DNA of 49,464 nucleotides, filler included, from Jimgerdemannia flammicorona (taxonomy: Eukaryota), in the NCBI GenBank assembly GCA_003990765.1. It is 2 parts of 2 records of this genome, joined end to end, with 100 filler letters (N's around TTAATTAATTAA, not from the genome) between each part and the next. Parts side by side here need not be neighbours in the genome. Positions count along the whole stretch, not along the records: positions 24,783 to 49,464 come from RBNJ01000941.1; 1 more part is not named here. One strand, given 5' to 3'. The position numbers and the translations under genes are program-made. A model generated the notes under the pieces. The model was not told the DNA's origin. It saw nothing but the letters and a program-made list of their open reading frames with translations, and did not search any database. Shown piece by piece: positions 14,868-28,181 of the stretch (positions within the stretch are counted from its first letter, which is position 1; the number at the start of each line of letters is the position of its first letter).

Positions 14868-15414
14868 ATAGGAAAAAACGATGCTAATAAATTGGTGGAA
14901 CAAAAATCAAGTAGAGTTGCAGACTTTGATGATGGTTATTAGGTTATGAGGCATTCGCACACATCTATAAGTATGTTTTTAGAATTCGACAAAGATACTA
15001 TGAATCAGCATCCTTAAATCGATCCCACCCCCAATTTTCTGCATCAATTCCAGGAAAATTGGGTGTTGTGAAATTTGCCTGTGTAAGAGGCGATATCTTC
15101 TAAGCGACTCTGATTTAGTACACATTAACCAAACGGCAAATGCTGGCCTTCGATTGAAGTACGGGATATACAGTGAGAGACAAAACCTTTCTGTTTTATT
15201 ATTATTTTTAAAAAATATATTGTGGCCTAAATATGAATATTATTAACCCCCAGATTTTAATCAATAATAAAGCAGCATCTGGGCTTTATACAGTATGAAT
15301 TTATTTGATTTGAATAATTATTTATAGAATTTATAGTGCAATAAAATAACATTGATCATTGGAAAGATTTTGTCTCTGATATGTTTCTGATACAAAATCA
15401 CTATTTATTAGTAC

Positions 15415-16727
15415 TGTAACAAACTAAGACATACCACTCAAATTATACCTTAGCTAGATGACACAAACAATTAGCCAAGATGATATAAACACACAGCATA
15501 GTAACCAGCAACCATTGCTGCAAAAATTGTATAATTAGCCAGATATACCATAAAGGGTCTGTTTATCTGTACAGACTCTGTATACCATACAGACTCTGTA
15601 CACTGTTCAGGTCCTGTACACTATATAGACTCTGTACACCTGCCATAAGTAGCAAACCTATAATTAGCCACATAGTAACCAGATAGCAACCACAATGTAT
15701 AAATTACCCCAGAGATAAGAGTGAATAAACCTCAGTCTGAAATTGAATACAAAAGCAAAAGACAAGTCTGCCTACTATACTTTGAGAGATATATCTACCA
15801 AAAGCCACTTGATCCAGAAAGAATTGCAACACTTAGGAGAAATGTCTGCTCTAAAGCCACTACTAGGAGATTGTAAGCATTGGTTCCCTTTTTCCACTCT
15901 GGTCTACTTTCCAATACAAAGAATGAGTTCATTTTTGGTTTACTTGCCAGATAAGCCTGAAGATTTGCTATCTAAGTTTAAGGAAGAACTTTGCTGCCCT
16001 TTCTCAGTTGAAGTCACTGATTCAGAAAAAATCCATACTATTCAAGTTATTTCCCAGAAGCCCACCAATTCCAGAGAATTCACATTATCTGCTATTTTCA
16101 AGTTATTTATATTCCCAGAAGAGTCCAATTTAGAAAGAATTCATATCATTCAAGTAGTATTTCCAGTTAAAGCTAATTTAGAAGAATCTGTATCATCCAA
16201 GTTATCTATGCCAATCTAAGTTATCCATTGTTCTCAGTGAGCCCAAGTTATTGAGTAATCCACCATCAGTATTATTTCCAGTAAGAAGAACCTATGCCAT
16301 CCTCTATTCTCAGTGAGCTGAATTGAGTTATCTATCAGAAATCGCATACTTTTGGAAATCATCATGCTATACAGAGATCATCACACAGAGATCACTACTA
16401 CCCAAGAAGGAGAACTACTAAATTGTCAGACCATCACATATAGAGATCATTGCATTATATATGAAATTCTACTAATTTCTAGTTGACCTAAGAAGGAAAC
16501 CCATTTATATATATAAATCACTGCTATATCTAGAGAACTATCTCAATTAGGAAATCCACACAAATTGCTCACAGATATCTAGCTTTAACTATTATACCAC
16601 TAAACACTAAGAACCTTGGGAATTATAGAACATTTTGTTGCTTTTTGACAAAGTAACTAGGGGCTTAAGCCAAACTACATCAATCTCCAATCTTGTAATT
16701 CGCCTCCATTGAGCCAGGCACATTACA
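15415..16727 (+). repeat. 5' LTR of element B
   Basis: TGTAAC...ATTACA termini; colinear with 23182-24682; contains four ~18-bp near-palindromic units (ctgtacagactctgtaca) at ~15567-15638. Confidence 0.92.
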
Positions 16728-16729
16728 TT

Positions 16730-16747
16730 TGGGAGCTCAACTGGGAA
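16730..16747 (+). promoter_or_regulatory. Primer-binding site, probably tRNA-Pro type
   Basis: tgggagctcaactggga two bases after the LTR resembles the tRNA-Pro PBS TGGGGGCTCGTCCGGGA, mostly by transitions. Confidence 0.65.
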
Positions 16748-19700
16748 GATTTCAAAATCAATATAACTTTTCAGCTCACAGGAACCTACAGTCAAACTGG
16801 ATATATTTGATCCAATACCAACCTCTGCCACTACAGAAGAACCAGTTATTACCAGTATCTGGACAGGAAGAGAAGTAATCACCTCAAGACTTGCCAACTA
16901 CTCAGTATCAGAAGAATTCCAACCAGAACCAGAAGGCAGTATAGCCCAAAATCCCCAACCAGATCAATCAGACAGTATAGGTAGCCCTGCTAGAAATTTT
17001 GAAGAACTTGTACAAAAACTAGAAGATCTTATCACATGAATCTGAGATCTTACAGCCAGACACCCCATACTAGTCCCATCAATCTCACTAATAGAACCTT
17101 TATCACAATCCCTTGCAGAGTTGGAAATAGCTCCTACAAGAATATCTAGGCTTATTCTACTTTGTCCAAGATCCAGAACACTATCCTCAAGATACCCAAG
17201 TACCTCCATCTCCAGTGACAGTTCAGAAAGTAAATCAGAATCAGAATCTGAACCTAAATCAGAATTAGAAGAAAGTGATGATGAAATGGCCATCTCATTA
17301 CCAACCTTTGCAAGATACCCAGAGAAAGACTCCAGAGAATTCCTTGATAGAATTGGAGGAATTGCAGTCTTGAGGAATCTCTTAGATGAAAGAAAAATCA
17401 CCATCTACAAGGCTCAGCTCAGAGAACCAGCCAGAGGAATTTTCTACTGAATAGCAAATAACCCAGATTTAGAACTGGCAAGATAGATACAAGCAGCAAT
17501 ATCTTACAAGCTAGAATATGAAGCTATGGTCTACTGGCTCATTAAAAAGTATACAGAAAATGAAACCTACCACAAGGCTTAAGAATCCATCATAGGGATG
17601 AAGATGAATCTTAGAGAATTGCCCAGAGCCTTCTTTACAAGAATCCAGAAGAGAATGCATGCTGCCAGATTCAATGCTATCAACCAGGACATCATAGGTC
17701 CAATGATCTTCATGAATAGAATTCCCCCAAACATTATCCAGCATATCTACACCCTAGGCATCAGAAGGTCCAAAGAGCAAATAGATGCAGCTCAAGGATT
17801 CTTTGATGTCAGACAAAGAACTACCTGGAGTGATCATGACAAGAAAAAAGATAAAGAAGACATCCTGATCAAAGCCCTACAAGGACTCTTTCAAGGACAA
17901 GAAAGATCTGAAGAAAGAAGACCAGCCAAGGAAGGAAAAAAGAACAGAAGCAAAATTCAAGACCTTAGCTCCAAATTGGACTGATTGGTTAAATATATTG
18001 AAAAACTTACCACATGTGAAAATCGAGACTACTAAGACAACAGAGGATACCCACCACAGAGGAGCCAAGGTTATTTACCAAGAGATAACAGGAATTACTA
18101 GTAAGAAGAAAGAAGGTACTTAGTCCAAGACAGAGCCCAAGTCCAATGCTTTCACTGTGGACAATTCAGACACTATGCTACTGAATGTGATATGTAACAA
18201 AAGAAATGACCAAAGGGACTCAGAACCACAAAACTGAAGGAATGACACTTGGTACAAGAAGACTGAAGCCCATTCTGTTGAAGATTTCGAAGAAGCAAGC
18301 AATAGTAAAGACTACAGTAACCTAGACTTGTATCCTACCAAGATTACCACTCAGAAAACAGTCTACCCATTAGAGAAAAAGAAGAGACCTGTAGGAAGGC
18401 CATCCAGAAATGTCAGCAGAAGAACTATCCAAGAGGAAGATGAAGAACATAAAGAAGAACAAGTAGAAATACCTCCCCAGACTCCTTCATCTTTTGTTCC
18501 CAAGACAAATGAGCTACTACTAGAAGATAAAGAAATGGAATAAGAAGAATGGGAACCTGCTGCCCCAAAGCCCAAAAAGAAGTATACCCCAAGGACTATG
18601 CCTAGAGACATCTACAATGAAGCTTGGCAGAAGATTCAAGAAGCCAAGATGGAAGTTTCCCTCCTGCAGTTCCTGCAATTGACACTAGCTGGAATCCAAA
18701 ACAAATTGTTGAAAACAACCAGATCCAGTACTGGCTGAGTTCCCATTCCACAGCAAGAACCAGCTTCCATCTCTATCCAAGCAGCTAAAAGACATATCAG
18801 TACCTACCTATATGGAGACATTGGAGGACAGAAGGCAAAGATCCTCATAGACACAGGAGCAGCTATCTGTATTATTGCCAAATGATTCCTGGATACCCTC
18901 CAATGGCCCATTGATAGACCATCCAACCTCAGCATCATAGTAGCAGATGGAGCCCAAACTCAACCCCTTGAAGAAGTATGAAACATCACTATCTCTCTTG
19001 GACACATTCAGTTCTCCATCCTGAAAGCTATTGTCACTGAAGCTATCACCTATGATATGATTCTTAGTACCAACTGGATGAAGGAAATGAATGCAGTTGT
19101 TGATATTAGTCAACAAGTACTCAAGTTTGACTACTGAGACAAGAAGTACAGAGTTAAGGTGACCAGTTATGAGCAATTGAAGAAAAAGCAGAAGGTCACT
19201 ATTCAGGAGAAATATGCCAGCAGTGAAGAATCTACTACAGAGAAAGAAGAAGAATCTAAAGATGGAAATAATCCCAGACTCAATCCCCAAATTAACCTGG
19301 TAGATGACAGACCAGAAAATAATATGTGGGCCAAGAACATCATCCCTATCATCATTGGAGCTATTGCAGGAGAAATCAAAGGATGCCCTACCTGCCTCAA
19401 GAGATACAAGTATCTCGAGCATTCCTCCAAGATTATGGGAACAAGGAAATCACCTAGCACAGCCTGTCCAGAGTGTAGAAAGAAGAAGAAATACAGATAT
19501 ATTCCAGAAATACCTACAACCAAAGCTGCAGGGATATAAGTAATTTAGGGTCAAGAATTATTCAAGGAAGAAGAAACTTCTGACCAAGAATTTCCAGAGC
19601 AAGAAGCACCTGAAGAAGAAGAGGTCTTTGAACTCATTCCCTGAGATGACCCTCACTGGACACCACCTGAAGATAATGACTCCTGAAATATGGAAGAAGG

Positions 19701-20469
19701 ACCCAGCATAATTACCATTATCCCAAAGAAAGAAACTCACCAAGAAAAGGCTTTTTGGTTAGGAAGATGTCCACACCAAATGGTCTTTTACTCTCCCTGA
19801 GACTACTGCTATCAGTGTCATTTATTAGACCAATAGGAGAGATAGAGACCCCAGAGACTAGAACCCCTGAATATACTTATACAGTCAACTACCTTCCAAG
19901 AAGTTACCACTAAGTTGCAAAGCTGATTCAGGGGATAAGACTTCTTCACCTGGACAGAAATATATCTCTTGTCTACTCTTCTACCCACTTATGACCAAGA
20001 TGGGTACTGATTTCCAAGACAACAAGAGATCAATAATTGGAAATATCATTTTCGAGTAATAGGATATAGCAACTATAGAAGACACCCTGACTGCTGAGAC
20101 TGCAGATATCAAAAGATTCATCTAAGTCATGATGTTGCAATCCATACTTTGAAGAGAGGAGATAACAGAGGCCAGATCTGAAAAAGCCAGATTCAAAAAA
20201 GCCAGACCAAGAAGCTAGAAAGAAGAATCCTTAAGATTTATAATTTGGGAGAAGACATCCTAGCTCTCATCAGACATGCAATCTACCAAGGATGGGCAGA
20301 AGTTGCCACCAACTTCATGAAAGCCCTAGATCCTATAGGAAAAAGAGGAATCAACTACCTCTAAGACCCCTCTACTGGAGCCAGATGGCCACACCTCAAC
20401 CTCAGAGCCTGGAGGCTCTCTGCTAGTGGAGCTTCAGCTCTAGGACAATCCAAACTTAGCAAGGACATT

Positions 20470-20880
20470 GCCCAGTATTCCCTGCTATATCCTAAGGCCA
20501 AACTCTTGACCAAAGCTCACCTAGAAGATATAGGGTATAATCTTCACAGTCTAGAAGATGAATCTATCAAGTCTGGAAAAACCTTCATGATCAGAACTAG
20601 ATTAGCCATGCAGTCACCCCAAGGAGCTTATATCTAACTGACCTCAAGGTCTGGACTTGCTAGACAAGGAATAACTATAGAAGGAGGAATCATTGACCCA
20701 GGGTATATAGGCGAAATTAAGGTTATTCTACACAACAGTAGTATGAAATAGCACTGAATCATTAGAGGACAAAAGATTGCCTAAGTAGTCTTCATGAAGG
20801 TCAAGACTCCACAGTTACAAGAAGTCTCTGAACTAACTGAAAGAACAAGACAAGCTAAGAGATTTGGAAGTTCAGACAGG
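20470..20880 (+). pseudogene. dUTPase domain remnant in pol of element B
   Basis: DIGYNL, SRSGLA, EGGIIDPGYIGEIKVIL, RGQKIA*, RFGSS correspond to dUTPase motifs I-V. Confidence 0.9.
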
Positions 20881-22626
20881 AAGGAAGTATATCTCCTTTA
20901 GGTCAACCATCTCAAGAGGAATGTTCCCCAGCAAGTGTACCAGCAACCAGTTAGACTACATAAGAATCTTATCCTGGAGCCTAGAGAACAAACCACCTTC
21001 GAAATCTTTGCACCACCTAATCTCAGAAACCTTTTCTTTGAACCCAAGGAAGATATTTCCTACCTAGATATAGAGAGATATACATTCCCTGACAAGATGA
21101 ACCTGGTACATTCCTAAGCAACCAACCAAAGCTAGGAAACCATCATCTTGCCAAAAGGAACTATCATAGGACATCTGGTGCCTTTTCTCAACTGAACTTA
21201 CAGAGAAGTTTACAAACTAAACCTATTGAGAAATGGCAAAAGGTCCCAGAAGAAAGGAAAGACCCCTCTATAACCCAGGAGATAGTGAAGCCTTCCACCA
21301 ATATTGGAGAAGAATTGACACCTCAACAACAGCAACAACTAGTAGAACTTCTCAACAAATACCAAGACATCTTCACTACTGATTATGGCAACCTGCCATA
21401 CAATCCATTATATTACTATAGCATAAATATAGGAAATATAACACCCATCTAACAGAAACCCTATAGAATATCCCATCCCTTAAAAATATTTGAAAAAGAG
21501 CACATTTAAGAACTCTTAGACAATAGAGTCATCTGACCCTCTACTAGTCCCTGGATCAGTCCTATACTTATCATACCAAAGAAAGGAGAATGGAGACTCT
21601 GTGTGGATTATAGAAAACTCAATTCAGTCACTGAAAAAGATGCCTATTCTTTGCCCAGAATCAATGACCTTTTGGATCAGTTACAAGATACCAGATACTT
21701 CAGTAGTATAGACCTTTTCACAGGATTCTATGAGATTCCCATGAACCTCAGAGATATTAAAAAAACAGCCTTCCTTGTTCTAGGAAAACTATTTGAGTAC
21801 CTCTGAATGCCCTTTGGACTTTGCAATGTACTCTCCACCTTCCAGAAGATGATGAATTCAGTCTATGCCCCTTTGATCCATCACTGCCTGATTGTATATA
21901 TAGATGATTCTAACATCTATTTAGTAAATTTTGAAGAATACCTGTATCACCTAGAGGAATTCTTCAAGCTTACTCACAAAAACCACTTGGACTGAATGCA
22001 AAGAAATGCTACTTTGGAAAACAGAAACTTGAATTTCTTGGATTCATAGTTTCAAAAGAAGAAACCTATGCAGACCCAAAGAAAACCAAGAAGATCAACA
22101 ATTGGCTAATACTTAAAACTCTGAAGGAAACACTATTATTTCTGATGCTAGTATTCTACTACAGAAGGTTTATCAGGGACTTTGCCCAAATTGCTGCCCC
22201 AATCCAAATCCTTCTCAAGAAAGGAGTACTATTTAAATAAACAGAATCACAAGAAAAAGCCTTCAAAGAACTCAAGAACTGCATGACTACAGCACCAATC
22301 CTTGTATACTCCAATTTATAGAAGCCATTCATCTTGTATACAGATGCTTCTAAAGATGGCCTCAGAGCAGTTCTAGCCCAAGAAAGATAAAAGAAGTATT
22401 ATAACTAGAAACAGAAAGATCAGGAGATCAAGATTGGAGATCAAGTACTAGTTTGGAGAAGTATAATTGAAACAAATTTTGCTGCCAAATTGGAACCCAA
22501 ATGGGAAGAACCTTATCTTGTACACAACATCAGAGAAACTAGCATCTATTTAAGAAGTATGGATAGACGAACTCTGAGAACACCAGTATATATCAATTAT
22601 CTCAAACTATATCTTCCCTCTACATC

Positions 22627-23142
22627 ATGAGCCAAAGGATTGATCAGTGCCTCTAGATATTGGTCCTCAGCTCCTTCTAGGCCCTATCAGTTCCTCTATC
22701 TCAATTCGACCAAGCTAATGAAAACCCCCTTCAGAAGATCCAAGTTCACTAAGAAAATCTCACTCTGGCCAGATACCTACTATAAATCCACCAACTGCAG
22801 GCCTATTATATAATTAGTGAACAATTGCAGAACCTTCCAGCCCCAGAGCAGACCTATATCAGGAATACTACCAGTCTGACCAGAAGAGACACTACTGCTG
22901 CAGACAGACTATACACTATTTACAAATGAAATATCACAACTCTGACACAGGCACAGTTCTCCCTGAATAACATTCAAGGAATAAACTCTACTACCTATTT
23001 GAGCCTCATCAATGCTGTCGAAATCCTATTCTCTGAAGAAGAAGAAGAGCCCATAGAATAAAGTGACCCTAGTACAGACAATGAAGATGATGGAATAGAT
23101 ATAGATGCAGAAGTAGCCTATACTTATTGGGATGATGACTGA
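22627..23142 (+). pseudogene. Decayed third ORF (172 codons, acidic tail) after pol of element B
   Basis: ATGA overlap with the pol stop (22627-22630); one frame to TGA 23140-23142; internal stops are all C->T-derivable. Confidence 0.72.
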
Positions 23143-23181
23143 AGAATAGTCTAAGACAGACTATCCTTTAGTAGGGGCTGA

Positions 23182-24682
23182 TGTAATAAACCAAGATGTA
23201 CTATCTGAATTATACCTTAGCCAGATGACACAAACAATTAGTCAAGATGATGTGAACATATAGTATAGTAACTGGCAACCATTGCTATGGAAATTGTATA
23301 ATTAGCTAGACATACTATAAAGGGTCTATTTACCTGTACAGACTCTGTATACTATACAGATCCTGTACCAAGGATCTGTACAGAGTAGTGGGAGAGTAGA
23401 GATAGTGTCAGACAAAGTGGTCTTTTATCAGATAAGAGTAGGGGGGGGGAGGGGGGGGGCCCCTAGGGGAATTGGATAGGGGGTGGGATCACTGTATTTA
23501 TATAAGATAGATGGGCATAATAAAGGAAAGAAGTCCAAGTGACTATGAAAAAAAAAAAAAGTATAGGTCCTATATACTGTACAGACTCTGTACACCTGCC
23601 ATAAGTAGTAAATCTATAATTAGCCACATAGTAACCAGATAGCAACCACAATGTATAAATTACCCCAGAGACAAGAGTGAATAAACCTCAGTCTGAAATT
23701 GAATCCAAAAGTAAAAGATAAGACTGCCTACTATACTTCAAGGGATACATCTGCTAAAAGCCACTTATTCCAAAAAGGATTACAATACTTAGGAGAAATG
23801 TCTGCTCTAAAGCCACTACTAGGAGATTGTAAGCATTAGTTCCCTTTTTCTACTCCAGTCTACTTTTCAATACAAAGAATGAGTCTATTTTTAGTTCACT
23901 TGTCAGATAAGTCTGAAGATTTGCTATACAAGTTTAAGGAAGAACTTCACTGCTCTTTTCCAGCTGAAGTTACCAATTCAGGAAGAATCCATACCATCTG
24001 AGTTATTTCCCAGAAGCTCGCCAATTCTAGAGAATCTATGTTATCTGCTGTTTTCAAGTTATCTATATTTCCAGAAGAGCCTGATTCAGGAAGAATCTAT
24101 ACCATTCAAGTAGTATTCTCAGTTGAAGCCAATTCAGAAGAATCCACGGCATTCAAGTTATCTATACCAATCCAAGTTATCTGTTATTCCTAGTGAGCCT
24201 GAGTTATTAAGTAATTTGCCATCAGTATTATTCCCAGTAAGAAGAACCCATATCATTCTCTATTCCCAGTGAGCCAAATCAAGTTATCTATCAGAAATCA
24301 CATATTTTTAGAAATCATTACACTATATAGAGATCATCACATAGAGATCACTGCTACCCAAGAAGAAGAACTACTAAATTACCAGACCATCACATATAGA
24401 GATCATCATACTATATATAAAATTCTACCAATTCCCAGTTGATCTAAGAAGGAAACCTGTTCATATACACAAATCGCTGCTATACCCAGAGAACTATCCC
24501 AATTAGGAAATCCACACAAATTGCTTATAGATATCCAGCTTTGACTATTATACCACTAAATACCAAGAACCTCGGAAATTATAAAACATTTTATTATTTT
24601 TTGACAAAGTAACTAGAGACTCAAGCCAAACTACATCAACCCCCAACCTTGTAATTTGCCTCTGTTGAGCCAGGTATATTAC
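23182..24682 (+). repeat. 3' LTR of element B (with ~190-bp private insertion), ending at the assembly gap
   Basis: TGTAAT start after PPT; matches the 5' LTR to ...caggtatattac; extra segment ~23369-23560. Confidence 0.92.
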
Positions 24683-24782
24683 NNNNNNNNNNNNNNNNNN
24701 NNNNNNNNNNNNNNNNNNNNNNNNNNTTAATTAATTAANNNNNNNNNNNNNNNNNNNNNNNNNNNNNNNNNNNNNNNNNNNN
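24683..24782. other. Assembly gap / artificial contig spacer
   Basis: Exactly 100 positions of N with a central TTAATTAATTAA (24727-24738; stops in all six frames). Confidence 0.95.
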
Positions 24783-25271
24783 TTTTAACAGACTGATGAC
24801 TGCTCTCAATCTGGTACCCTACTAGTTTACTATAATTACTCTTTCTTCTATCTGTAATAATCATCTCCTCTCTTATCCTGACTCCACCCCAAAAAACAGT
24901 CACCTATACTAGAACTACACTTACCAAGAAACTTGCCAAAGCCAGAGAGCCCCACCACAGGCATCAAAAATCTATAGATAACCTATACTGAGTACTTAAT
25001 ATCTAAGATCAGCTAACTCTCTACATAATCTATCATATATTAAGATAATATATTGTTAGTAATAACAAAAGGAAGAAAGTGCTACACCAAAACAGGTATA
25101 CCCCAGATATAGCCAAAGACACCAGAAACCATAAAAAGTGAAGAAAACACTAATCAGATACTAATAAAAGGGCAACTTATCACTATTACCTTTCTCTCAT
25201 TGCACCCATACAGGTATAGCAAACCACACTAGGGTAGAGGGTGAGAAGTTAGGGGAAAAGAGACCCAGACA
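24783..25271. repeat. Unclassified CpG-free repeat fragment, possibly an LTR end
   Basis: Same CpG-depleted composition as the retroelements; ends ...cccagaCA just before the nuclease remnant. Confidence 0.35.
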
Positions 25272-25574
25272 GTTGCCTGCTAAAACTGTGTGACCAGTAT
25301 GGTAGTGGAGAAAGAGGGTGATCATTGTTTCCAAGGCATATATATCAAAGATATATAGTACATATGGATGGATCATTCAGGGGTTGAACAGTCAAAAGGT
25401 CTTTCAGTGCTGGGATTGTAAATGGGTAGTAGATAGAGATGTAAATGACGCCCGAGGGATCTTTCTGAGAGGACTTCTGTTTCTCAAAGGGAGATCTCAA
25501 TGAAGGCTTTGCTTGATGGAGCTGCCCAAGTTGCGAAACTTGGTGTACAGGGTGAATTTCACGTGCCTGACTAG
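25272..25574 (+). pseudogene. C-terminal remnant of a TnpB/Fanzor-like (IS607/Fanzor2-type) RNA-guided nuclease
   Basis: KRVIIVS(K)AY(I)SK(IY)ST(Y)GW...KVFQCWDCKWVVDRDVN(D)ARGIFLR. Reverting transitions gives EAYTSKTCxxCG...CxxC...DRDVNGARGI (RuvC-II, zinc ribbon, RuvC-III). Continues as ALLDGA after a 35-nt interruption. Confidence 0.85.
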
Positions 25575-25627
25575 TGTTGACTAGTCATGGTTAGTGATGC
25601 TCGCTTAGACCCATCCGTAACATCGGG
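25510..25627 (+). ncRNA. Candidate omegaRNA scaffold / transposon right end
   Basis: Perfect hairpins CCAAGTT-GCGA-AACTTGG (25526-25543) and TGACTAGT-GTTG-ACTAGTCA (25568-25587) overlap the 3' end of the nuclease frame. Confidence 0.45.
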
Positions 25628-25630
25628 TGA

Positions 25631-27913
25631 ATGGCATTTCTTTCCGTCTTGACATGCCGCCTCAGGCTACAGAAAATAAACACCCTCTCCTTCGCAACCC
25701 GCAACTGCACATCGTCGCTCAATGTTCTCGTCTCTCACCGCCGCTTCGTCACCCAACCCGACCACCAACCACCCACCACTAGCGTCCTCACTACCCCACC
25801 TTCCCCACCTCGACCACCTCGAAGATCCCGAAGCTTCACGAACCCCCCTTGGACTCCCGCGGAGGACACCCTTCTCAAAGCCTTCGTACTCCGCAATGGC
25901 TGCAAGTGGACTGATGTCTCCAACCACGTACTCCCCAATCGCCTCCCAGTGGCCTGCCGCAGCCGCTGGATTAACGTCGTGAACCCTTCCCTCCGCCATG
26001 GCACCTTTACCCACGAGGAGAGAAACGTCATTCTCCAGGGCGTCAAGCTCTATGGCGAGAGGAAGTGGTCCTTCATCGCTAACGAGCTTCTACAGGGCAC
26101 GAGATCCGCGAGCCAAGTCGCCGGTCACTGGAAACTGACGCTCAACCCGGCCATCCGTCGGAACCGCGCGCGAGAGACCTGGGAGCCCGATGAGGATAAG
26201 TTACTTGTGATTGGCGTGGAGAGGTTTGGCGTCGGGAAGTGGGAAGAGATTGCGCGCAAGATGCTGCCGCATCGGACGAGGGTGCAGTGCCGGCAGAGGT
26301 GGGTACGCGTACTGGATCCCGAGGTGAGTAGAGTCCCGTGGACGGAGGAGGAGATGGAGATTTTGCTAAGGAGGGCGTTGGTATATGGGACAGAGAATTG
26401 GTGGAAGGTAGCGGATGGGTTGCCCGGGCGGACGCCGTGCGCGTGCGAGGAGATGTGGGTAAGAAAAGTCGATCCGTCGCGGCGTGAAGACAAGCGGTGG
26501 AGGGACGAAGAGACGAATCTGTTCTGGGCTAGAGTCGAGCAGTTTGGGAACGACTGGGTCAAGGTGGCAGAGGCATTGGACGGGAGGTCGCGGAAGGATT
26601 GCATGCACAACTTTTGGAGATTCGCCAAGCAGCTACGGGAGCACGTCGTCAAGGATGATATATTGATCGGATCCGGCGACTTCGCGCGGTATGTGGCGAT
26701 GCTCATTAATGGCAAGCTCTCGCGGAGGAAGTTCCAACGCTGGATACCCCAGGAAGACGCCCAGCTCCGCCAAATTGTCGAATCGGCTGGTACGGGAACC
26801 CCCCTCGATTGGAATGATGTCGCACGCCAAATTCCCGGTCGTACCCCCTTACAGTGCAAGGGTCGTTACACCGACCACCTCTCCGCTCTCATCAAGGGCC
26901 GGTGGACTGCCGACGAGGATGCTCTCCTCGCTTCGTTGGTCACCATGCATGGGCACGCATGGTCCAAGATCGCGTCGCACGTGCACGGCAGGACGCCTTT
27001 GCAATGTCGTCGGCGCTGGAGTAACACCTTGCAATATCAGCAAAACAACATCAATCCGTCAACTGCATCCAACGTCGCCGATTCTGCCTCCCCCCGACCC
27101 GCTATCCAAAAAGGTCCCCTAACCAACGACGAGAAGCACGCCGTCATTTCCGCCTGGGCGGAACTCGGCCCGGACTGGTCGGCCGTCTCGCGCCTGCACC
27201 TCCCGCACCGCACCCCGGAACAGTGTGGCCGCGTCTGGCGCCGTTCCATCTCCGGCGAGATCCGTAAGGGCCGCTGGATGCCCGAGGAGGACGACGCGCT
27301 TCGCTTCGCCGTTGAGCGCATCGGCGGGACCGCCCAAGGACAGGAAGAGGGGACCAGCACATCCCAACCCACTCCCTCGCCACCGAACATGTGGATTTCC
27401 GTAGCCCGCTTTGTTCAGGGCCGCACACCACCCCAATGCCGCCTCCGATGGACGTGCACGCTGCGCCCGGGAATTCGGAAGGGCAAGTGGACGGGCGCCG
27501 AAACGATGCGGTTTTTGGAGGCGGTGGAGCGGCACGGGAGGCATGGAAACGTGGCGTGGGAGAACGTGGCGAGGGATGTCGGGGGCGGGAGGACAGCGTG
27601 GGCATGCCGGCAGAAGTATTCGCGCGGGACGACGAACACGGCTTACCGCACGTGGGTTTGGAGTGCTGTGGAAGATACGAGGTTGAAGGAGGCGGTTGAA
27701 AGGTATAAGGATGGAGCCCCCGAGAAGATGTGGGAGATGGTGGCGAGGGAGGTTGGGACCGGGAGGAGCGCGTGGGCTTGTAGGATGAGGAGTTTGGGGA
27801 ATGCGAAGGGGGTAGAGGCTAGGATCCAGAAGAGCAGGAAGAGGTATTTGAAGGTCAGTATGGAGCGGTTGAGGAAGGTCATGGATCAGAAAGGGGGGAG
27901 CGTGGATGGATAG
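25631..27913 (+). CDS. Intronless multi-repeat Myb/SANT protein (about 11 repeats), 760 aa
   Basis: Repeats start WTPAED, FTHEER, WEPDED, WTEEEM, WRDEET, WIPQED, WTADED, LTNDEK, WMPEED, WTGAET, WSAVED, most with W...(G)RT..QC..RW-like cores. Confidence 0.93.
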   Translation: MAFLSVLTCRLRLQKINTLSFATRNCTSSLNVLVSHRRFVTQPDHQPPTTSVLTTPPSPPRPPRRSRSFTNPPWTPAEDTLLKAFVLRNGCKWTDVSNHVLPNRLPVACRSRWINVVNPSLRHGTFTHEERNVILQGVKLYGERKWSFIANELLQGTRSASQVAGHWKLTLNPAIRRNRARETWEPDEDKLLVIGVERFGVGKWEEIARKMLPHRTRVQCRQRWVRVLDPEVSRVPWTEEEMEILLRRALVYGTENWWKVADGLPGRTPCACEEMWVRKVDPSRREDKRWRDEETNLFWARVEQFGNDWVKVAEALDGRSRKDCMHNFWRFAKQLREHVVKDDILIGSGDFARYVAMLINGKLSRRKFQRWIPQEDAQLRQIVESAGTGTPLDWNDVARQIPGRTPLQCKGRYTDHLSALIKGRWTADEDALLASLVTMHGHAWSKIASHVHGRTPLQCRRRWSNTLQYQQNNINPSTASNVADSASPRPAIQKGPLTNDEKHAVISAWAELGPDWSAVSRLHLPHRTPEQCGRVWRRSISGEIRKGRWMPEEDDALRFAVERIGGTAQGQEEGTSTSQPTPSPPNMWISVARFVQGRTPPQCRLRWTCTLRPGIRKGKWTGAETMRFLEAVERHGRHGNVAWENVARDVGGGRTAWACRQKYSRGTTNTAYRTWVWSAVEDTRLKEAVERYKDGAPEKMWEMVAREVGTGRSAWACRMRSLGNAKGVEARIQKSRKRYLKVSMERLRKVMDQKGGSVDG

Positions 27914-28181
27914 TTATGGAGAGCTATTAGAAATTTTCATAGTACATTGATTCCATGTATTTGCATGTACACGCGATAATAAGACTTTGGCCTTTGCATC
28001 CAAAAAGGGCCAAACTTTGCTAATCTGCTACAATTGTCTGCTCAAACCATGTTGGTGTCACCTGGTAACTGTTCACGCCGATCTTCAGAGCAGTCACCAA
28101 AATCGTCATCGGCCCATTTTCCTTTTTCATCGCTGTCTTTCTTCACCCCCCCAACCCCCCCTCTCGACATCCCAACTCCGA

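What the first reader, a model, noticed from the sequence alone, without database searches (positions are those of the whole stretch)
25510..25650. Intact-looking omegaRNA-like hairpins whose predicted guide would be the start of the Myb gene
Seen: two perfect stems (one with a GCGA GNRA tetraloop), a third imperfect stem (~25587-25614), possible gatgg/ccatc long-range pairing, and retained CpGs despite the decayed nuclease. The segment ends ...gtaacatcGG four bases before the Myb ATG. Known: TnpB/Fanzor omegaRNAs overlap the ORF 3' end and take their guide from flanking DNA. Inference: the transposon end now forms the Myb promoter/5' UTR, or yields a guide RNA against this host gene usable in trans.
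Basis: partly seen in the sequence, partly recalled or inferred. Interest (0 to 1): 0.7.

Follow-up and report, generated by a model that had tools for sequence, protein, structure and literature searches.

The report
Dead Fanzor2 transposon end abutting Myb
The hairpins are the real guide-RNA scaffold at the tail of a dead, known kind of RNA-guided jumping gene that landed 13 bases in front of a fungal Myb gene and probably now forms the start of that gene's message, but nothing found shows that it works as a guide against the gene.

Summary
The hairpins are the omegaRNA scaffold (about 25505-25617) of an IS607-type Fanzor2 transposon. The right end is sharp at ...CCATCCG|25617 (26 of 30 loci), 13 nt before the Myb ATG, not 4. 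Left ends read RCCG, and a serine-recombinase remnant follows them in full-length copies. The GAUGG/CCAUC helix and one hairpin covary across subfamilies. Only about 305 nt of this copy survive, and its nuclease is dead. Retained CpGs occur family-wide and at both ends of a full-length copy, so they look like an unmethylated margin beside genes, not selection on RNA. The guide occurs nowhere else in the assembly and is predicted to pair with the scaffold's own end. Contigs of a probable RNA run carry the Myb sequence 29 nt into the element, and the 10 kb upstream is CpG-free repeat, so a transposon-supplied leader is likely but unproven. This scan has already noted dead copies of this family on other DNA of the genome.

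The parts
24784..25314 (.). End of an unrelated, very abundant repeat that truncates the Fanzor2 remnant on its 5' side
   Evidence: Own-genome search: 4566 candidates, 40 scored; matches at about 77-80% stop at query 524-535. The same repeat is nested in other copies. No left end, TnpA or upstream Fanzor was found in window 1-25300.
25310..25503 (+). Decayed C-terminal piece of the Fanzor2 gene (zinc finger and RuvC-III region), stop codon 25501-25503
   Evidence: Pfam Cas12f1-like_TNB E 3e-06 on the read-through frame; tblastn of intact relatives hits 25318-25491; 84-94% identical to other copies.
25505..25617 (+). omegaRNA scaffold, about 113 nt, which is also the transposon right end
   Evidence: Sharp common end in 26 of 30 loci; covariation over 18 sequences; no Rfam family. 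The 5' limit is inferred from conservation, not mapped.
25515..25519 (+). GAUGG, 5' strand of the long-range helix (likely the pseudoknot) with CCAUC at 25611-25615
   Evidence: Helix 88% paired over 18 sequences, with one double change (G-C to U-A in L021) and six A-U to G-U changes; RNAalifold finds it unprompted.
25523..25547 (+). Hairpin carrying the GCGA-capped extension (25526-25543)
   Evidence: Base of the hairpin: 3 of 5 pairs with double changes, 91.9% paired. The GCGA extension occurs only in this subfamily.
25550..25605 (+). Long imperfect stem-loop topped by the 8-bp stem (25568-25587); holds TGACTAG repeats at 25568 and 25578, similar to motifs at the left end
   Evidence: Folds; repeat positions. 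That these are transposase-binding repeats is inference from passages of 10.1101/2023.08.09.552727.
25615..25617 (+). CCG core shared by right end and left junction; the right end reads TCCG, targets read RCCG
   Evidence: Left junctions: A before the core in 12 of 14, G in 2 of 14; CCG intact in 10 of 14, CpG-decayed in 4. Right ends: ATCCG in 20 of 30, decayed forms in 6.
25618..25637 (+). Flank and predicted guide: 13 nt of leader plus the first codons of the Myb ORF
   Evidence: The first 14 nt occur once in the assembly, here. CGGGUG can pair with the scaffold's terminal CAUCCG.
25631..27913 (+). Intact host ORF, 760 aa, 11 Myb repeats, with an Arg/Ser/Thr-rich N-terminus
   Evidence: Pfam PF00249, 11 stretches, E 5e-107; next Met at residue 211; covered at depth 29-46 in two probable RNA runs.
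15200..25440 (.). CpG-free repeat block upstream, with an assembly gap at 24683-24782
   Evidence: 15 CpGs in 10,241 nt; long direct repeats about 7.9 kb apart; N runs.

Best explanation
This is the surviving right end of a dead IS607-type transposon that carried a serine recombinase and a Fanzor2 nuclease. Shown: family, both ends, scaffold structure and decay. Inferred: the recombinase inserted it at an RCCG site 13 nt upstream of the Myb start codon. In a genome whose repeats have lost CpG, such sites exist almost only in and around genes, which explains why copies sit beside genes. Like any copy, it took its guide from the flank; in the element's active life that guide would have directed cutting of the empty site (RCCG plus flank) to keep or home the element. 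Methylation-type C-to-T decay then destroyed the ORF and another repeat cut off the 5' part. A margin of about 80-130 nt next to gene-rich DNA escaped decay, which is why the scaffold looks intact. Because the insertion and later repeats displaced the gene's original upstream DNA, the Myb transcript most likely now starts in the last part of the element, which acts as a passive leader or promoter rather than as a working guide.
For: Ends and core. TnpA remnant after the left end in full-length copies, including two with this right-end type (L063, L066): tblastx to a resolvase-like frame and NF033518 hits of E 1.3e-06 in L074 and 1.7e-19 in L136, both under the curated cut-off. Fanzor2 motifs in relatives. 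Decay gradient in 12 copies mostly with CpG-rich flanks: CpG kept 12/12 at -2, -16 and -84, 6/12 at -133, 0-2 of 11-12 beyond -213; in 4 buried copies 0-2 of 4. Other substitutions do not drop at the scaffold edge: 3 of 1420 in the last 122 nt, 6 of 1883 in -282 to -122. 6 of 14 close copies carry indels in the scaffold (read). Left ends show a margin too, and in full-length L063 it is symmetric, +79 and -84. RCCG density is 0-1 per 5 kb in repeat blocks and 61-89 in gene-rich blocks. Myb contig in run X2 spans 25589-27955.
Against: Pooled, CpGs 30-90 nt from the end are kept more at right ends (31 of 33) than at left ends (9 of 27; Fisher p 7e-07). The left-end set is more decayed inside, so age confounds this, but a right-end-specific cause is not excluded. 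Methylation itself was not measured. The X2 contig has 29 letters on the element side, under the tool's 31-letter rule for bridging; the runs are RNA only by guess; X1's listed Myb contig starts at 25635, with 44 pieces not shown; strand and start site cannot be read from contigs. Upstream ATGs at 25587 and 25597 would burden a longer leader. No empty allele was seen, so the TAM and the original promoter of this locus are unknown.
Confidence: 0.7

Rival explanations
1. Orphan guide for homing in trans: the scaffold is kept because an active Fanzor2 elsewhere loads RNA from dead copies and cuts empty alleles, so that dead insertions, this one included, are copied across at mating.
For: Scaffolds are near-intact in copies with dead ORFs in two families. 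Short nuclease-less elements exist in a sister family. Three contigs start with an identical 127-nt right end and one relative has a single frame break, so a young family may be collapsed in the assembly. Ghost omegaRNAs are functional with SpuFz1 (PMC10432273, passages and Discussion). Run X2 differs at 7 letters in the Myb gene yet carries the junction, so the insertion may be shared between haplotypes.
Against: Symmetric margins in L063; scaffold indels in 6 of 14 close copies; no drop in non-deamination substitutions, at low power; no intact Fanzor ORF in the loci read, which are only part of 104 matches. With 14 nt of its own flank the terminal helix falls from probability 0.96 to 0.00 here, the strongest end-to-guide pairing among 13 copies (no pseudoknot or protein modelled).
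Confidence: 0.12
2. RNA-guided regulation of the Myb gene: a Fanzor2, perhaps nuclease-dead, uses this guide to bind the filled locus (CCG plus guide) or the gene start and alters transcription, as TldR proteins do in bacteria.
For: The guide overlaps the start codon. A 3-nt CCG TAM is reported for NlovFz2 (PMC10432273, passage), and the filled locus does read CCG plus guide.
Against: All 14 left junctions have a purine before the core while right ends have T, the usual self/non-self pattern of IS607 (passages). No intact or domesticated Fanzor was seen. Other copies point at genes in either orientation, 8 same-strand and 13 opposite among 21 of 44 with a Pfam hit within 1.2 kb. The guide is predicted to be sequestered.
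Confidence: 0.03
3. Purely passive neighbour: the Myb transcript starts within the 13-nt flank or its own N-terminal region, and the element contributes nothing.
For: X1's listed Myb contig begins at 25635; this copy's private letter at 25549 is not seen in X1 or X2; the X2 contig misses the bridging rule by 2 letters.
Against: The X2 contig is continuous from 25589 through the junction, and unique DNA further upstream has zero depth, which argues against DNA contamination. The first ATG is needed for the first Myb repeats. A core promoter needs DNA upstream of the start site, which here is element (established knowledge).
Confidence: 0.15

Closest known systems
Fanzor2 in eukaryotic IS607-like elements (PMC3627910, passages; 10.1101/2023.08.09.552727, passages and section 24)
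   Same: Serine recombinase plus TnpB-like gene in full-length copies; no terminal inverted repeats or variable duplication; scaffold at the right end with pairing next to the guide; repeats in a stem-loop.
   Different: Core is CCG/RCCG rather than GG/GGG; this copy is a 305-nt remnant with no left end or recombinase; it abuts a host start codon.
ApmFz2 omegaRNA (PMC11832414, passages)
   Same: The 5' part pairs at long range with the last scaffold nucleotides; variable peripheral stems.
   Different: Scaffold here about 113 nt against 205 nt; TAM there is GGG; nothing here was solved or assayed.
NlovFz2 and ghost loci (PMC10432273, passages and Discussion)
   Same: CCG motif as in the NlovFz2 TAM; omegaRNA present without an intact nuclease.
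   Different: Ghost loci of SpuFz1 are compact two-ended Fanzor1 elements with inverted repeats; this is a truncated, decayed copy, and expression as a small RNA is not shown.
IS607 CboIStron TnpA/TnpB (10.1101/2023.11.20.567912, passages)
   Same: Target motif and scaffold end share a core and differ just upstream (TGGG against UCGG there; RCCG against TCCG here).
   Different: No group I intron here; the host gene is not interrupted; eukaryotic host.
TldR RNA-guided repressors (PMC10705468; search listing and start of abstract only; details recalled)
   Same: Only the idea of a transposon-derived guide matching a host gene start.
   Different: No intact nuclease-dead protein, and the guide matches only its own flank.

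Membership tests
IS607-type element | Serine-recombinase TnpA gene after the left end | tested here: met
   Met for the family, not this copy: remnants in L063, L066, L073, L074; NF033518 hits below cut-off. Absent from window 1-25300.
IS607-type element | No terminal inverted repeat or variable duplication; short core at both junctions | tested here: met
   CCG at left junctions and right ends; the two end sequences are unlike; right flanks are unrelated.
IS607-type element | Transposition by TnpA through a circular intermediate | not testable with these tools
   Needs an active element.
Fanzor2 | DPG RuvC-I, shifted glutamate, C4 zinc finger, RD in RuvC-III | tested here: met
   All four in relative L037 across two frames; zinc-finger and RD region in close relative L022; this copy keeps a decayed tail only.
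Fanzor2 | Placement in the Fanzor2 clade by tree | not tested
   No tree built. Best named hit of relative L116 is a chytrid protein at 51% identity, and some hits are fused to a resolvase domain.
Fanzor2 | Intact ORF with RNA-guided cleavage | tested here: not met
   Stops, frameshift and truncation in this copy; no intact ORF in the loci read.
TnpB/Fanzor2 omegaRNA | Structured scaffold at the right end with pairing beside the guide | tested here: met
   89.1% of cells paired, 4 of 14 pairs with double changes, 0-1 of 500 shuffles as high on four of five measures (48 of 500 on the fifth), slid controls 33-45%. The structure was drawn from these sequences and they are related, which inflates such counts.
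TnpB/Fanzor2 omegaRNA | Expressed as a discrete RNA of scaffold plus guide | tested here: inconclusive
   Only contigs were available; scaffold depth of 150-400 comes from other copies, in X2 from L016, whose end lies just past the stop codon of a convergent gene.
Ghost locus | Both ends and omegaRNA kept, nuclease gene absent | tested here: not met
   Left end missing and ORF tail still present. Ghost-like short elements exist in a sister family.
TldR-like RNA-guided regulator | Intact nuclease-dead TnpB whose guide targets a separate host site | tested here: not met
   No intact protein; guide found once, at its own flank (exact 14-nt match only). Definition recalled.

The most novel reading that the evidence does not exclude
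One 113-nt right end serves as both the Myb gene's promoter/leader and a precursor of a guide RNA, and across the genome dozens of gene-adjacent dead copies are kept as orphan guides that a hidden active Fanzor2 uses to home them into empty alleles, so that host transcription feeds the guides.
Probability: 0.08. Interest if true: 0.75.

Novelty: new member of a known kind. Interest (0 to 1): 0.3.

Why it matters
The element type, the flank-derived guide and orphan omegaRNAs are in print. What this locus adds is modest but usable: a compact fungal Fanzor2 scaffold of about 113 nt with covariation support, an inferred RCCG target motif, and a case where the scaffold DNA probably forms a host gene's leader. 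I saw no report of that last point in the listings of five searches (listings only, open-access library only). It also gives a caution for genome scans: intact-looking omegaRNAs beside dead nucleases can arise from a decay-free margin next to genes. If the novel case held, it would bear on the open question of what Fanzors do in their hosts.

Tried and rejected
Rfam on 25200-25900: two chance hits, E 0.99 and 2. Boundary at 25626 with a GG core: rejected, copies diverge after CCG at 25617. TA duplication (Tc1/mariner type): rejected, the first flank base varies, T 10, A 8, C 5, G 3 of 26. Other targets of the guide: none by exact 14-nt search; near matches were not searched. Genome count of an 8-nt right-end motif: 3755 matches against 1503 for the control, uninformative. 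Rest of the element upstream in the window: not found. Orientation bias of neighbouring genes: none, 8 of 21, p 0.38; 23 of 44 right ends had no Pfam hit among the six longest frames. Myb orthologues to define an empty site: only distant hits, at most 39% identity, and no relatives of this genome are held. Scaffold RNA depth as proof of omegaRNA: rejected, it comes from other copies. A pooled left/right difference as proof of selection: set aside after the paired look. No supplements were opened; tables of Fanzor loci in those papers may already list this family.

Full report
Observation. The stems, the gatgg/ccatc complement and the CpGs are in the sequence, and the stretch folds better than shuffles (z -3.16; scaffold alone -3.35, antisense -2.62). 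No Rfam family matches. A read-through frame just upstream hits Pfam Cas12f1-like_TNB (E 3e-06), and the downstream ORF 25631-27913 has 11 Myb repeats. The host looks like an early-diverging fungus; this is inferred from the homologues and the earlier notes, not established.

Boundary. A search of the own genome with 25300-25700 gave 39 matches, 30 fetched. Of those 30, 20 end in ATCCG and 6 in CpG-decayed forms of it; the other 4 are truncated, variant or mis-picked by my script. Flanks are unrelated. The end is G25617, 13 nt before the ATG.

The element. Full-length relatives are 2.8-4.4 kb with insertions. Of 20 left-end loci fetched, 14 showed the junction: flank, CCG, then CTCAAAAAATCG; the base before CCG is A in 12 and G in 2. 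A serine-recombinase remnant follows the left end, also in L063 and L066, which carry our right-end type (hits below the curated cut-off). Relatives show DPG, the shifted glutamate, the zinc finger and RD, and the best named hit is a chytrid protein at 51%. This fits Fanzor2 in IS607-like elements (PMC3627910, passages). Target RCCG against right end TCCG mirrors the self/non-self pattern described for IS607 (10.1101/2023.08.09.552727 and 10.1101/2023.11.20.567912, passages). CCG is the TAM reported for NlovFz2 (PMC10432273, passage). Our TAM is inferred, not assayed. In the window only 25310-25617 survives: an abundant repeat ends at about 25314, and no left end or TnpA lies upstream.

Structure. 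On 18 scaffolds chosen by me from several subfamilies, a 14-pair core was 89.1% paired, with 4 pairs changed on both sides; slid controls gave 33-45%. RNAalifold found the terminal helix and the first hairpin unprompted. The terminal helix rests on one double change and six wobble changes, and one of its six pairs fails in 8 of 18. It matches the pseudoknot next to the guide in TnpB and Fanzor2 RNAs (section 24; PMC11832414, passages). The GCGA extension is subfamily-specific, and the second perfect stem owes its perfection to a private change.

Why it looks intact. I split 16 close copies by eye on flank CpG into 12 exposed and 4 buried (one of the 12, L009, has a short CpG-poor flank). In the 12, CpGs are kept at 12/12 (-2, -16, -84), 11/12 (-56), 8/9 (-70), 6/12 (-133), and 0-2 of 11-12 beyond -213; non-CpG C-to-T runs at about 1% in the last 122 nt and about 12% upstream of -162. 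In the 4 buried copies the same CpGs are mostly gone. A sister family shows the same in many copies. Left ends also have a margin: 10/11 at +2, 8/8 at +14, 4/9 at +33, 3/11 at +83, 0/10 at +150. Pooled, the right margin is wider (p 7e-07), but that left-end set is more decayed inside. In four elements with both ends: L063 keeps CpGs to +79 and -84; L073 has lost nearly all at both ends; L074 keeps them to +54 and -157; L071 keeps them only at the end with a CpG-rich flank. Other substitutions do not fall at the scaffold edge (3 of 1420 against 6 of 1883, low power), and 6 of 14 close copies have scaffold indels. A methylation-free margin explains this best. That deamination of methylated CpG depletes it is general knowledge (PMC13297926, passages); methylation was not measured here.

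Why beside genes. RCCG occurs 0-1 times per 5 kb in the repeat blocks and 61-89 times in gene-rich blocks. Of 44 right ends with enough flank, 21 have a Pfam-recognised gene within 1.2 kb, 8 on the same strand and 13 opposite. Among the 8, this locus has the shortest distance to the recognised frame (14 nt against 206 or more). The search favours well-kept right ends, so these counts are biased towards gene-adjacent copies.

The guide. The first 14 nt of flank occur once in the assembly, so under the known mechanism the only target is an empty allele of this site. The flank's CGGGUG pairs with the scaffold's CAUCCG: with 14 nt of flank the terminal helix drops from 0.96 to 0.00 and end-to-guide pairing is 0.87, the highest of 13 copies; two other copies also lose the helix by other pairings (no pseudoknot or protein in the model). 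The nuclease search gave 104 matches; none of the loci I read had an intact ORF. The assembly is fragmented and may hide young copies.

Transcription. Six runs were listed, four laid, all as contigs. X1 and X2, RNA by guess, cover the Myb ORF at depth 29-46 and leave the unique bin 25144-25261 at zero. One X2 contig runs 25589-27955 with 7 other letters; it has 29 letters on the element side, under the tool's 31-letter rule. X1's listed Myb contig starts at 25635. Depth over the scaffold (150-400) belongs to other copies; in X2 it carries the deletions and flank of L016, whose end lies just past the stop codon of a convergent NAD kinase gene, so it is probably antisense 3' UTR. This copy's letter at 25549 is not seen, though contigs drop rare variants. 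The first ATG is probably the true start, since the next Met is residue 211. Upstream lie 10 kb with 15 CpGs. I infer that the start site lies in the last tens of bases of the element; upstream ATGs at 25587 and 25597 argue against a much longer leader.

Verdict. A real omegaRNA scaffold of a dead IS607-Fanzor2 copy, probably acting as the leader of a host gene (0.7). Orphan homing guide 0.12, RNA-guided regulation 0.03, no contribution to the gene 0.15. The scan had 21 notes fitting this family in this genome, 8 shown; word and sequence look-ups for this scaffold found none. New member of a known kind; interest 0.3.

Noticed in passing
L160:1170-1593 (G000:C275): A nuclease-less element of about 420 nt with a sister-family scaffold sits inside an intron of the RNA polymerase I second-largest-subunit gene, which gave a single match in the genome.
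   Followed up: partly
L153, L155, L158, L159 (upstream of their right ends): Short, internally deleted, CpG-rich elements with a scaffold: ghost-like members of the sister family.
   Followed up: partly
L143, L144, L145: 1-127: Three contigs begin with an identical 127-nt right end and different flanks, suggesting a young collapsed family; L037 and L038 also break at one shared place, and L037 has two long overlapping Fanzor frames.
   Followed up: no
L114:483-490 (same site as L016): Right end inserted about 4 nt past the apparent stop codon of a convergent NAD kinase gene; well covered in the probable RNA runs.
   Followed up: partly
window 25631-25765: The Myb protein's first 45 residues (5 Arg, 1 Lys, 1 Asp, 10 Ser/Thr) look like a mitochondrial presequence, as do two paralogues, L165 and L166. 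Judged by eye; no predictor was run.
   Followed up: no
window 25625-25632 and 25550-25557: The flank repeats GGGTGAAT found inside the scaffold, so the 13-nt spacer may not be pristine host DNA.
   Followed up: no
left and right ends of many copies: Deletions of about 10-11 nt are frequent at both ends and in the ORF.
   Followed up: no
window 15415-16320 and 23182-24275: Long direct repeats about 7.9 kb apart, LTR-like, in the CpG-free block.
   Followed up: no
run X1, joint 25445-25563: One contig with another copy's flank skips 117 nt of the scaffold; deletion or antisense splicing not resolved.
   Followed up: no
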